From Yuukianura sp. NJ FZ-2021 (lineage: Eukaryota), in contig CM102284.1 of assembly GCA_046563655.1 (NCBI GenBank), forward strand, positions 6,262,001 to 6,326,000: a stretch of 64,000 nt of DNA, read 5' to 3'. Shown one piece after another: positions 41,001 to 46,760 of this stretch. A program made the translations under genes and the position numbers. Below the pieces are notes generated by a model, which was not told the origin of the DNA, searched no databases, and saw only the letters and a program-made list of their open reading frames with translations. Positions within the stretch are counted from its first letter, which is position 1, and each line of letters opens with the position of its first letter.

Positions 41001-44000
41001 AATAGTGACTTTTCATTTGTTAGGACTGCACTATAAACTACATTAATTAAAAAGTTAGTTAGTAAATCAATTAATTAAAATCATGACAAGTCAAGCAGAG
41101 ATTAGTTTGAGATCAAAAGTTCCAATCAGCTAACTACTGTAAATAATTAACAAAGTTAAAATACAAAAATAGAATTTGTTGAGTTAAATGGAAAAAGAGG
41201 GGGTTGAGTAAAATGTTCAAAAAAAGCAAAGGAGTTAGGCCTAAGTGGGTTGGTCTTTCTCTAAACAAATTTCAAAAATTGTGTTTGAAAATTTCTGAAA
41301 TTTTGTCAAATTTTGAAAGTCTACCTTCCATTTCCCAAATTTAGACTTAGCAATCAAATACACTAATATTGCTTTCCAAGACTCTATTTTTCGTTCGATT
41401 CTAATTTTTTCTGTCAAAAAATCAAGAATTCGACTGTTCGTTGCATATTCCTTCTGAAATTAAGTTTGACCTTTGACCCCACTTGTACCTTCTCCTGCTG
41501 ACTACTACTTTGGGTTAGGTAGATTCTAAATGCATGTCTGATTCTTCTTCTACCGTAAAGCTCCAATTAATGTACCTTCACTCTCTCAAGATCTACGGCA
41601 TTCATCATGGAACCCTGAAAGAACTTGACTGTCGTGTAATGGCGCTTCAATAACCCTTCCAATTCCAAATCTGGCTCTTTCCTAAGTAGTACCAGTTACC
41701 TCAAAATTATCTTCTTCTCTCTGTTTAGCATCAGAGGTCAAACAGAGGTCAACAGAGGTCAATGACCTCACCAAACCTACCTGTGCAAAAACACAACCTC
41801 CACGTCCACGTCCTCTCGATCCTCGTGTAAGAAGTCTTTGAGAAAGTGAGAAACGGATTCGTACGTAATGTGACCACAGACAACGATGTGCCTGTTAAAA
41901 AGAGAATGAGAAACTTACAATTCTTCATAAAATTAATAAAAAATAATTTCGAAAAGTTGACTTTTTGAGAAATTTAGCACATTTTGAGCACAAGTCGAGA
42001 TATTGCAAAGCTTCAGAACATAAATGCACGAATGCGTTAATTGTTTGACTTGACTTGGACAAATGTTTTTGATAGAGAAAGTTAAAGTTCACGGTTCACT
42101 TGAAAGCATAGCTTTTTTCGGGTGTGGTTTTGGAAACGGAGAAAAGCCATAAATAACAGAAAAAACTGAAACTGAAAGAGAGGAGAAAATTTTTTGAAAC
42201 AAAAAAATATTAAAAGGTCATAGAAGTTGACCTCAAAAGTGAAAAACTTACCAAAAAGCCGAAGTGAGCGTTAGGTTTAGTAGAACAAAGAGCTCACACG
42301 AGAGTCAATACGACTAAAAGTTGTATTTTTAAAGAATATATAGAAAAAAGAAATCGTGAAAACTACACAAGCAGAACAACTAACAAACAAGAAAGGAATT
42401 GGAAAAGTGAAAGCAGGTGAAAGTAAGTTGATTTCGTGCCAAGTCCAGTTAAGTGCTAATTGTGGTCCAAAGTGACATTTTGCAACACAAAAAATACAAA
42501 AATGGAAGTTTTCTTTCTCAAAAATATTGCTTTTTATCAAAAACGAAAAAGCTTTCTCCTTAGAAAAGCTATTTCATTAAACATGGAAAAGTTTCTAAAA
42601 ACTTTCTCTCAGAAAGTTAAAAAGCTTTGATATTTTTTTTTATTTAAAAAATTTCAAATTTTCCTACCTCCTTCCTCGCTCATTTTTTAAAGTTCCGCCA
42701 TATTTGGGTCTTGTTCCAATTAAATCTATGATTTCCGGTATACAACTGGCAAATATTGCCTAAATACAAGTACAAAACAATAATTTAGAAAAAATGTTCC
42801 AAATTTTCCAAATTTAGAAACTAAGAATTTAGAAAATTATAATTTAAACAAGTTAGAACAAAAGCGGAATTGAAAATTTTCACTTTTTTTTTCTGGTAAA
42901 ATTGTCAGCCAAACATCGACCTGCGCAAAAAATTAACTTCGGGTTAGAATTGTCAAGTTCTTAAAAAACCTAAGATGTGTTTTTTTTTGTTAAAATTTTT
43001 CGAATTTTGACGAAATTTGAAACTCAACGGACAACTTTAAACAAAAAACAAAAAGAAGCGGAAGCGTGCAAAATGACACTAATTAGTAGTTGAGCAAACT
43101 ACATGGAAGAGTTGAAGGGTTTTTAATTTTCTGAATTTCTGAAAATAACCAAACGCTACGATTTGAACAAACCAATCCAGAAATCCTAAAAATAAAATAC
43201 TTTTTCTAAAATTTTGTCCAAACTGTTACGTGTTTTTCTACTTGAGAAGCAAAAGAGAAGGCTCACCTGACTTGGTCAAATTTTTTATTTATGGTTTTGC
43301 AGGAGAGTCTCTTTCCCAACTGCTGTTAGTGACTGGATTAAGAATAATTAATGAAAAAAAGTGAAGAAAAAGAGAAAATCAATAAATTCACTCCAAAAAA
43401 TAGAAAAACGAAAAAAAGGAACTAAATTTTGATTCTTTTTTAATGCAAAAGGGACCTTGGCTTTCTCTAGTCATTCCTCTCTGCCAAAAAAATCTTCCTG
43501 AATCGTGAACTTTTTGAAGAAAGAAAAATCGAAAACCAAACAGTGAAAGGCATTTTTTACCTCCTTCCTGGCGTTTTATTTAATGTCCCGCCAAATTTCG
43601 GTCGATTACCAACAATTTCCGTAATTTCAGGTATCCAACTCGCAAAAACCGCCTTTTACATACAGGAAAAATCAATGACAGTATTACACACCTCAGAAGG
43701 ACTTGATTTGCCGGTTGACGTAAACCAACCCACTGCCCTTTGTAACCACCGTAACCACCCGAACAAGGAAACCATAAGTAGGCGTAACCACTTGATTAGT
43801 AGTTACACAAAATACCTCATTTTGGTTTTTATTTTCCTGTTTTCTGCCTTTGATCAAAGTCTAAATAAAGTAACCCGCTGCAAAACCGCAAATTTTAGAA
43901 AATTTTTTGTTTTTTTTTCGGTTTTGTGGTTACATCGGACGCGTTCGGATTTAGGCCAACCGACCAAATTTCGACACAAAAGGACTATGCACCAGGACAA

Positions 44001-46760: not shown

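What the first reader, a model, noticed from the sequence alone, without database searches (positions are those of the whole stretch)
42901..44353. Three-way competing RNA-structure switch around the slowpoke S6-RCK1 mutually exclusive exons
Seen: element D (44324-44353) lies ~160 nt after the upstream constitutive 5' splice site. It is the reverse complement of element S (42901-42921), ~140 nt before the acceptor of the distal exon: ATTGTCAGCCAAACAT is a perfect 16-bp match, then a 1-nt bulge and GACC. D:S pairing would loop out the proximal exon (43561-43652). The same D segment (RNA GCCAAACAUGACCAAAAUUCAAC) can instead form ~19 bp with the core of element X (43955-43975, RNA GUCGAAAUUUGGUCGGUUGGC). 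X in turn is complementary to the proximal exon itself. Inferred model: state 1 is D:S plus a nested X:exon duplex, so the proximal exon is masked and looped out and the AIFASC exon is used. State 2 is D:X, which unmasks the proximal exon so AVFASW is used. Established: docking/selector competition controls mutually exclusive exons in Dscam1, 14-3-3zeta and Mhc, and the S6-RCK1 linker tunes BK gating. A selector that also acts as an antisense mask of its own exon would be an unusual design. I do not know of it being described for slo.
Basis: partly seen in the sequence, partly recalled or inferred. Interest (0 to 1): 0.92.

Follow-up and report, generated by a model that had tools for sequence, protein, structure and literature searches.

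The report
Intron pairing around slowpoke alternative exons

Summary
The gene has two tandem 92-nt alternative exons after the pore exon.

- **D:S.** This pairing is 16 perfect bp, a 1-nt bulge, then 4 bp (-32.2 kcal/mol). No other exact inverted match of 16 nt or more with this geometry exists in the window. None of 400 dinucleotide shuffles reaches it. It is not a dispersed repeat within the window. It forms with probability about 0.95-1.0 in a fold of the 1.9-kb pre-mRNA.
- **D:X.** This pairing is weak (-18.7) and close to background frequency. It is never the dominant structure at any simulated transcription stage.
- **X and the proximal exon.** X belongs to a 50-nt element complementary to the 3' half and 5' splice site of the proximal exon (-42.6). 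That duplex is favoured only in one folding intermediate.

My best reading is a Dscam/14-3-3zeta-type docking-selector pair that loops out the proximal exon (AVFASW) and favours the distal one (AIFASC). The X element may act as an auxiliary mask. Conservation could not be tested because no orthologous introns and no RNA data were reachable. I class it as a new member of a known kind, of moderate interest.

The parts
44511..44678 (-). Upstream constitutive pore/S6 exon (56 codons, ends ...FFLLVGL). Its 5' splice site GT is at 44510-44509.
   Evidence: Sequence and ORF reading. It was used as the query.
44324..44353 (-). Element D, the candidate docking site. Positions 44353-44334 pair with S. 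D starts 158 nt downstream of the 5' splice site.
   Evidence: Its 16-nt core occurs only here and at S in the window.
43953..44002 (-). X-region. The full 50 nt is an imperfect antisense match to the 3' half and 5' splice site of the proximal exon. X is also D's second-best partner.
   Evidence: -42.6 kcal/mol with 43611-43560. Pairing probability is about 0.7 only in the transcript truncated after exon 1.
43710..43719 (-). Alternative partner of X's 3' half (43964-43955). It forms a 10-bp helix about 60 nt upstream of the proximal exon's acceptor.
   Evidence: P 0.92-0.98 in folds reaching to before exon 1, to just before S, and full length.
43561..43652 (-). Proximal mutually exclusive exon, 92 nt (3n+2), [30 protein letters not shown](R).
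   Evidence: It is 74% identical to the AVFASW variant of decapod slowpoke isoforms.
42901..42921 (-). Element S, the candidate selector for the distal exon. It ends 141 nt upstream of that exon's acceptor. G 42917 is bulged.
   Evidence: P 0.95-1.0 for the 16-bp core.
42668..42759 (-). Distal mutually exclusive exon, 92 nt, [30 protein letters not shown](R).
   Evidence: It is 94% identical to the decapod AIFASC variant.
41781..41891 (-). Downstream constitutive exon (…[36 protein letters not shown]…).

Best explanation
D and S form a docking-site/selector-type long-range RNA helix in the slowpoke pre-mRNA. D lies 158 nt into the intron after the constitutive pore exon. S lies 141 nt before the distal alternative exon. 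When S has been transcribed, the 20-bp D:S helix closes a loop of about 1.4 kb that contains the proximal exon.

That helix would bring the upstream donor to within about 300 nt of the distal acceptor. Splicing would then go to the distal AIFASC exon and the proximal AVFASW exon would be skipped. If intron 1 is spliced to the proximal exon before D:S forms, D is removed with the intron and S has no partner.

The 50-nt X-region can pair with the proximal exon's 3' half and donor site. If that pairing forms, it acts in the same direction, masking the proximal exon, and is not one pole of a switch. Both exons are 3n+2, so including both or neither shifts the frame, which independently penalises non-exclusive products.

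- **Shown:** the elements, their geometry, their statistical rarity, and the predicted dominance of D:S.
- **Inferred:** that the helix forms in vivo and affects exon choice.
For: - **Strength and rarity of D:S.** It is -32.2 kcal/mol, with 16 perfect bp plus 4. None of 400 dinucleotide shuffles reaches it. It is the only exact inverted match of 16 nt or more among 312 same-geometry placements in the window.
- **S is D's outstanding partner.** Within the 1.85-kb unit S scores -32.1, the next partner -19.5, and the 608 windows average -6.7 with sd 4.3.
- **Folding.** Pairing probability is 0.95-1.0 in the 1921-nt partition-function fold.
- **Not a repeat within the window.** The core has only these two copies. 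The complementarity is sharply bounded. Flank similarity is no better than natural AT-rich background, with 63 of 1276 windows scoring as high.
- **No known RNA family.** Rfam gives no match in 41500-45000.
- **An old cluster.** The orthologous AIFASC and AVFASW exon variants occur as alternatives in decapod slowpoke isoforms. Among 112 proteins carrying the pore motif, 87 have AIFASC, 15 AVFASW and 10 ALFASS.
- **Right lineage.** The genome looks hexapod-like, and docking/selector control is established in arthropods (PMC6071210 and PMC3245913, passages read).
- **X-region:exon.** Its -42.6 is the best non-trivial partner among 6394 natural windows.
Against: - **No evolutionary evidence.** No orthologous intron could be obtained.
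- **The one informative relative shows nothing similar.** The only relative with the same two-exon layout and readable introns on both sides of the proximal exon is metagenome contig L001 (77% identity in the pore exon). It has no comparable pairing: longest complement 9 nt, best energy -22.4.
- **The near relative gives no power.** A roughly 2%-diverged relative (run X4) shows no listed change inside D or X. About 1.6 changes would be expected over those 80 nt, and only 40 of 123 substitutions were listed.
- **No RNA data.** No RNA run is listed, so neither exon usage nor the structure is shown.
- **Energy alone is not unique.** Nine of 312 natural placements reach the D:S energy.
- **Prediction limits.** Long-range folding predictions of 1-2 kb are unreliable.
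- **Inconsistent masking.** X-region:exon pairing is favoured in only one truncation (P about 0.7). Elsewhere X's 3' half pairs with 43719-43710.
Confidence: 0.5

Rival explanations
1. The inverted repeat is fortuitous or neutral. Under this view D/S arose by chance, by a small inverted duplication, or as part of a low-copy repeat, and has no effect on splicing. The X complementarities come from shared near-palindromic words (GGTC/GACC, AAATTT, TTGGC/GCCAA).
For: - The chance expectation for an exact inverted 16-mer within 2 kb somewhere in a 64-kb AT-rich window is of order 0.1 (my estimate from composition).
- By energy, 9 of 312 natural placements match D:S.
- D:X is near background.
- L001 lacks any equivalent.
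- This window is demonstrably rich in short dispersed motifs. TGACCTTTGACC occurs 16 times against 0.38 expected.
- The extra helices the fold places beside D:S are of ordinary length. One arm (42969-42980) is partly removed by a 10-nt deletion at 42976 seen in run X4 and in about half the depth of run X1.
Against: - For this specific intron pair, none of 400 shuffles reaches the match.
- The pair sits exactly in docking/selector positions around a mutually exclusive exon.
- Only two copies exist in the window.
- The core is perfect and sharply bounded, unlike decayed repeat copies.
Confidence: 0.27
2. State 1 is D:S plus nested X:exon, with the proximal exon masked and looped out. State 2 is D:X, which frees the proximal exon.
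For: - All three complementarities exist and share nucleotides.
- X is D's second-best partner and the exon is X's best partner in the unit.
- D and X are transcribed before the exon and before S, so a kinetic D:X state is conceivable.
Against: - D:X does not appear in ensembles of any co-transcriptional truncation, even when neither the exon nor S is present.
- D:X is -18.7, against -32.2 and -42.6 for its competitors.
- Its background frequency is about 0.07 per intron.
- In the full-length fold X pairs with 43719-43710 and not with the exon.
Confidence: 0.1
3. The X-region is an editing-site complementary sequence. Its imperfect duplex of about 36 bp with the proximal exon would recruit ADAR for A-to-I recoding of that exon. 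This is independent of, or additional to, exon choice.
For: - An exon paired with an intronic antisense element is the classic ADAR substrate architecture (my own knowledge).
- The duplex is the best non-trivial partner of the exon in 128 kb.
- Drosophila slo transcripts are reported to carry four editing sites (PMC3902911, passage read).
Against: - The editing sites named in that passage lie in the vestibule and pore, not in this exon.
- No RNA data exist for this organism.
- The duplex is not stable in most predicted ensembles.
- Two searches for slowpoke together with ADAR or ECS terms found nothing specific to this exon.
Confidence: 0.08
4. D:S acts as a reverse-complementary match that promotes back-splicing. 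This would circularise the proximal exon, with linear skipping as a by-product.
For: Complementary sequences in both flanking introns are the known driver of exon circularisation (my own knowledge). D and S flank exactly one exon.
Against: - A 92-nt single-exon circle is unusually small.
- There are no RNA data to look for a back-splice junction.
Confidence: 0.05

Closest known systems
Dscam1 exon 6 docking site / selector sequences (insects)
   Same: A docking element lies in the intron just after the constitutive exon. It is complementary to an element upstream of a variable exon, and pairing loops out the intervening variable exon(s). The description is from PMC3245913 and PMC2724269 (passages read).
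   Different: - Here there are only two variable exons.
- Only the distal exon has a convincing selector (S). The proximal candidate (X) is weak.
- No conservation or mutational data exist here.
14-3-3zeta, Mhc, srp and MRP competing intronic pairings (Drosophila)
   Same: These are small mutually exclusive clusters of 2-8 exons in arthropod genes, controlled by inter-intronic base pairing. They are listed as the reported cases in PMC6071210 (passage read). The detail that proximal exons can be the default choice is recalled, not read.
   Different: - slo is named in PMC6071210 as a 3-exon cluster but not among the genes with a reported structure.
- This window has 2 exons.
- The third (ALFASS-type) variant seen in decapods is absent from 40001-47000.
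Human ATE1 exons 7a/7b competing RNA structures
   Same: A two-exon mutually exclusive cluster with several intronic elements, where alternative pairings decide the exon (PMC7797038, abstract seen in the search listing only).
   Different: In ATE1 two elements compete for a third with experimental support. Here the competing pairing (D:X) is not supported by folding.
C. elegans slo-1 exon 10a/10b (site A)
   Same: A mutually exclusive exon pair in the BK-channel gene, with about 0.85 kb between the exons (PMC4165533 table passage). [quoted passage not shown]
   Different: - The nematode exons are 113 nt, not 92.
- PMC9741552 regards the fly and worm events as unrelated.
- Regulation described for slo-1 involves an intronic motif and coordination between sites (PMC4039745 passages), with no docking/selector helix mentioned.

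Membership tests
Docking-site/selector competing RNA structures of arthropod mutually exclusive exon clusters | Tandem, homologous exons of equal length in one cluster | tested here: met
   Two 92-nt exons lie 893 nt apart, 73% identical at the DNA level over 102 nt and 61% at the protein level. No third copy exists in 40001-47000.
Docking-site/selector competing RNA structures of arthropod mutually exclusive exon clusters | The exons are used mutually exclusively in mRNA | not testable with these tools
   No RNA run is listed. Indirect support: decapod slowpoke isoforms carry one of AIFASC, AVFASW or ALFASS. Both exons are 3n+2.
Docking-site/selector competing RNA structures of arthropod mutually exclusive exon clusters | A docking site in the intron adjoining the constitutive exon, complementary to a selector next to a variable exon | tested here: met
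   D lies 158 nt after the donor and S 141 nt before the distal acceptor. The pairing is 20 bp at -32.2 kcal/mol. None of 400 shuffles reaches it, and P is 0.95-1.0.
Docking-site/selector competing RNA structures of arthropod mutually exclusive exon clusters | A selector for each variable exon, all competing for the same docking nucleotides | tested here: inconclusive
   X lies 303 nt upstream of the proximal exon and overlaps S's footprint on D. However, it scores only -18.7, its background frequency is about 0.07 per intron, and it is never populated in folds.
Docking-site/selector competing RNA structures of arthropod mutually exclusive exon clusters | Conservation or covariation of docking site and selectors across species | not testable with these tools
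   No genome is held. Metagenome, prokaryote-genome and viral-contig scans gave no close relative. L001 has no analogue. Run X4, at about 2% divergence, has too little power.
Docking-site/selector competing RNA structures of arthropod mutually exclusive exon clusters | Disruptive and compensatory mutations change and restore exon choice | not testable with these tools
   This needs an experiment.
ADAR editing-site complementary sequence with exon duplex | An imperfect duplex of about 20-30 bp or more between an exon and a nearby intronic element | tested here: met
   44002-43953 pairs with 43611-43560 at -42.6 kcal/mol. This is the best non-trivial partner among 6394 windows.
ADAR editing-site complementary sequence with exon duplex | A-to-G differences between RNA and DNA in the exon | not testable with these tools
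   No RNA run is listed.
Dispersed repeat or transposon terminal inverted repeats | Further copies of the arm sequence elsewhere | tested here: not met
   The 16-mer, a 14-mer (up to 2 mismatches) and a 9-mer core occur only at D and S in the 64-kb window. The whole genome could not be searched.
Dispersed repeat or transposon terminal inverted repeats | Similarity of the two arms extends well beyond the core | tested here: inconclusive
   The inner flanks align with score 20.5, reached by 1 of 300 mononucleotide shuffles. But 63 of 1276 natural windows score as high. The outer flanks show no signal, with 223 of 300 shuffles as high.
Reverse-complementary matches driving exon circularisation | A back-splice junction of the flanked exon | not testable with these tools
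   No RNA run is listed. Only the flanking complementarity is shown.

The most novel reading that the evidence does not exclude
The slowpoke S6-RCK1 exon cluster is governed by a kinetic three-element RNA device. In it, the proximal 'selector' X is also an antisense mask covering the proximal exon's donor site. Early D:X pairing would license the proximal exon. Later X:exon pairing together with D:S would shut the proximal exon off and hand the donor to the distal exon. This design has not been described for any docking/selector system.
Probability: 0.1. Interest if true: 0.75.

Novelty: new member of a known kind. Interest (0 to 1): 0.45.

Why it matters
The S6-RCK1 linker exons tune BK-channel gating. 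PMC9741552 (passage read) cites Lagrutta 1994 for functional differences between alternative slo exons.

How the choice between these ancient exon variants is made is not described in the papers I could search. In the passage read from PMC6071210 (2018), slo is named as a multi-exon cluster but is not among the genes with a reported competing structure.

A validated docking-selector pair would add an ion-channel gene to the short list of structure-controlled mutually exclusive clusters. It would also give a simple handle, two 20-nt elements, for switching channel isoforms experimentally. Without conservation or RNA data it remains a well-founded candidate, not a finding.

Tried and rejected
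- **Whole-intron RNAduplex.** The observed -229.8 against shuffles of -218.4 +/- 9.8 (n=60) is uninformative, because it chains many small helices. I replaced it with seeded 30-nt local duplexes.
- **D, S or X as decayed exon copies, sense or antisense.** Local alignments of introns to exons are at background. X against exon 1 scores 21, reached by 23 of 200 shuffles. The D, S and X regions score 7-12 against a window background of mean 9, sd 1.7, maximum 16.
- **Third exon copy.** None is present in 40001-47000.
- **Longer inverted repeat around D/S.** It is not beyond natural AT-rich background.
- **Pairings that would loop out the distal exon.** Intron 2 against intron 3, and intron 1 against intron 3, give nothing notable: best -21.2 and -20.7, longest 11 nt.
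- **Analogous structures in other loci with two exon copies.** L001 shows nothing. In the annelid-like loci L016, L029 and L030 the best exon partners have z about -3 to -3.8, which is the expected extreme for 225-757 windows, and their positions are inconsistent.
- **Second slo cluster.** Its apparent competing pairings are explained by a dispersed 12-mer and are not exceptional.
- **Orthologue hunting.**
  - No genome is held.
  - Our-findings look-ups returned nothing.
  - The metagenome scan's best hit is 77% identical in the pore exon.
  - The genome contigs and viral-contig scans returned only hits of 62% identity or less; the genome contigs records are titled as bacterial or archaeal.
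- **RNA evidence.** No RNA holder is listed.
- **Reads of runs X4 and X1.** No listed difference lies inside D, X or S. Only 40 of 123 substitutions and 12 of 41 indels were shown, and the expected counts are about 1-2, so this says nothing either way.
- **Rfam.** No family matches.
- **Papers not held.** PMC5711460 and PMC3251113 could not be read. Supplements are closed, and the box-pair table of PMC2724269 might list slo.
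Full report
**What is there.**
The finding lies in a slowpoke/BK-channel gene on the minus strand, roughly 33.5-46.8 kb of the window. The layout is as follows.

| Feature | Coordinates (minus strand) | Note |
|---|---|---|
| Pore/S6 exon | 44678-44511 | ends ...FFLLVGL |
| Intron 1 | 44510-43653 | 858 nt |
| Proximal alternative exon | 43652-43561 | 92 nt, AVFASW... |
| Intron 2 | 43560-42760 | 801 nt |
| Distal alternative exon | 42759-42668 | 92 nt, AIFASC... |
| Intron 3 | 42667-41892 | 776 nt |
| Next constitutive exon | 41891-41781 | |

The two alternative exons form the only long direct repeat in the region. Within the gene they are one of only two paralogous exon pairs.

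The organism is not a nematode, as I first guessed. A neighbouring choline-transporter exon finds a springtail as its best named hit (73% identity), followed by insects at 60-67%. A slowpoke exon is 96-97% identical to decapod slowpoke. Among the first 120 proteins, 112 carry the pore motif. They show three alternative versions of this very exon: AIFASC in 87, AVFASW in 15 and ALFASS in 10. The cluster is therefore old within Pancrustacea. This window keeps two of the three variants and has no third copy in 40001-47000.

**Checking the observation.**

| Pairing | Description | Energy (kcal/mol) |
|---|---|---|
| D:S | 16 perfect bp, bulged G 42917, then 4 bp | -32.2 |
| D:X | 17 bp in three blocks around a 6-nt bulge | -18.7 |
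| X:proximal exon | 19 bp, 5 of them G-U | -23.4 |
| X:distal exon | | -13.7 |

**Is D:S more than chance?**
Yes.
- None of 400 dinucleotide shuffles of the two introns reaches the D:S energy. The shuffles have mean -19.8, sd 2.3 and minimum -29.4. None reaches a 16-nt exact complement; their maximum is 15.
- I slid the same geometry (856 nt, a 92-nt gap, 801 nt) over both strands of the window, giving 312 placements. Only two have an exact inverted match of 16 nt or more, and both are this locus read on either strand. The runner-up is 15 nt.
- By energy alone, 9 of the 312 placements reach -32.2. One is the locus itself and several lie in the G+C-rich repeat at about 54-56 kb, so energy alone is less discriminating.
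- The core sequence has no other copy in the window.
- The complementarity is sharply bounded. The inner flanks align a little, but 63 of 1276 natural windows score as high.
- Rfam finds nothing in 41500-45000.

**Is the X part more than chance?**
Only partly.
- Within the 1.85-kb unit, X is D's second-best partner (-19.5, next -14.9).
- Across 128 kb, however, 14 sites pair with D at -19 or lower. That is about 0.07 expected per intron once S, X and D's own complement are removed.
- X's match to the proximal exon is more notable. It extends to a 50-nt element (44002-43953) pairing with the exon's 3' half and its donor site (43611-43560) at -42.6. Six of 6394 natural windows are as good or better, and all six are the exons' own opposite strand.
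- That the best non-trivial partner in 128 kb lies in a flanking intron has a prior of about 1-3%.

**Does the proposed switch hold up?**
I folded the pre-mRNA with partition functions, both full length (1921 nt) and truncated at four points that mimic transcription.
- D:S forms with probability 0.95-1.0 as soon as S is present.
- D:X is not populated in any truncation, even when neither the exon nor S has been made. In those folds D sits in weak local structure.
- X either forms a local hairpin or pairs through its 3' half with 43719-43710 (P 0.92-0.98).
- X-region:exon pairing wins (P about 0.7) only when the transcript ends right after the exon. In longer transcripts the exon forms its own hairpin.
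- The MFE also places ordinary-length helices beside D:S: 42930-42939 with 43999-44008, and 42969-42980 with 43686-43697. One of these arms is cut by a 10-nt deletion at 42976, seen in run X4 and in about half the depth of run X1, so I give these helices no weight.

The robust feature is therefore D:S. The three-way competition is not supported thermodynamically, and D:X would need a helper protein or special kinetics.

**Origin ideas that failed.**
D, S and X share near-palindromic words with the exon, so I tested whether they are decayed sense or antisense exon copies. The alignment scores are at background.

**Comparative evidence.**
None was usable.
- No genome is held, and earlier notes of this scan are empty.
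- The metagenome scan returned no close relative; its best hit is 77% identical in the pore exon.
- That contig, L001, is interesting in itself, with three tandem pore-exon copies and two linker-exon copies. It has no D:S-like pairing.
- Prokaryote-genome and viral scans gave only hits of 62% identity or less; the genome contigs records are titled as bacterial or archaeal.
- No RNA run is listed.
- Contigs of a roughly 2%-diverged relative (X4) and of X1 show no listed difference inside D, X or S. Only 40 of 123 substitutions were listed and about 1-2 would be expected, so this carries no weight.

**Mechanism I consider most likely (confidence about 0.5).**
D is a docking site and S is the selector of the distal exon. 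The D:S helix loops out the proximal exon and brings the upstream donor to within about 300 nt of the distal acceptor, favouring AIFASC. AVFASW is chosen when intron 1 is spliced before S is made or while the helix is prevented. The X-region may add a mask over the proximal donor. Both exons are 3n+2, so frame-shifted products that contain both or neither give a second layer of exclusivity.
- Shown: sequence, geometry, rarity and predicted stability.
- Inferred: formation in vivo and any effect on splicing.

**Rivals.**
- A neutral inverted repeat (0.27).
- An ADAR editing duplex for X:exon (0.08). Drosophila slo is reported to be edited at four sites, with the ones named lying in the vestibule and pore (PMC3902911, passage read).
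- Circularisation of the proximal exon driven by the flanking complementarity (0.05).

**Comparison with what is known.**
The architecture matches the arthropod docking/selector systems described in PMC3245913 and PMC2724269 (passages) and PMC6071210 (abstract and passages). PMC6071210 lists slo as a three-exon cluster in D. melanogaster. It names Dscam, MRP, Mhc, srp and 14-3-3zeta as the genes with reported competing structures, and slo is not among them.

Full-text searches combining slo-1, slowpoke or BK channel with mutually exclusive, docking, selector, base-pairing or competing-RNA terms found no description for this gene. 'slo' is absent from the main texts of PMC4691838 and PMC2724269. 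Supplements were closed, and PMC5711460 and PMC3251113 were not held, so an earlier mention cannot be excluded.

**Verdict.**
- It is a new member of a known kind.
- Interest is moderate.

Noticed in passing
window 41576-41681 and 40546-40651 (minus strand): A second mutually exclusive exon pair in the same gene. Both exons are 106 nt ([24 protein letters not shown]... and [24 protein letters not shown]...), lie 924 nt apart, and follow a 99-nt intron. TGACC and GGTCA repeats in the three flanking introns (41764-41735, 41480-41464, 39945-39930) could pair alternatively at -26.6 and -25.3. These pairings are not exceptional against the window background.
   Followed up: partly
window-wide, for example 15566, 18031, 23479, 23486, 27895, 28458, 35553, 37161, 39932, 41467: The 12-mer TGACCTTTGACC, a DR1-like direct repeat of a nuclear-receptor-type half-site, occurs 16 times (10 exact) on both strands against 0.38 expected. 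None of 100 shuffles reaches that count. The flanks are unrelated, so it is a short dispersed motif and not a transposon. Its function is unknown. It may be a transcription-factor site.
   Followed up: partly
window 41750-41772 and about 23470-23497 (minus strand): A similar small hairpin-forming sequence (GGTGAGGTCATTGACCT..., followed by TGACC repeats) sits directly after a 5' splice site at 41780, and after what looks like one near 23497. The first is also a period-10 tandem repeat at 41732-41762.
   Followed up: no
L001: 3475-3642, 4018-4185, 4562-4729, 5086-5175, 5593-5682: A metagenome contig from an unidentified animal carries three tandem copies of the BK pore/S6 exon, followed by two tandem copies of the S6-RCK1 linker exon. 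The second linker copy is 93% identical to this window's AIFASC exon. Alternative pore exons would be a notable way to diversify the channel.
   Followed up: partly
L016 1870-2205, L029 5453-5743, L030 2643-2930: Three further metagenome contigs (unidentified animals) also have two tandem copies of the linker exon, only about 110-155 nt apart. Tandem duplication at this position therefore recurs across distant animals.
   Followed up: no
window 36882-36896 and 37755-37769: This is the second-longest exact inverted match with the test geometry in the window (15 nt). It also lies inside the slowpoke gene. I did not examine what it flanks.
   Followed up: no
window 42963-43043: A haplotype with a 10-nt deletion at 42976, 1-nt deletions at 42963 and 43043, and C>T at 43001 is present in run X4 and in about half the depth of run X1. 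The intron is therefore polymorphic close to S.
   Followed up: no
window 41902-42035 and 44180-44313: Depth in run X4 jumps about six- to eight-fold in these two bins (47.5 and 50.6, against about 6-8 in neighbouring bins). This suggests repeated or low-complexity sequence next to D but not including it.
   Followed up: no
window 53745-56276 (minus strand): An 843-codon open frame, very rich in G, Q, S and Y, contains many GGYSQGQSG-like repeats. It may be a low-complexity structural or secreted protein.
   Followed up: no
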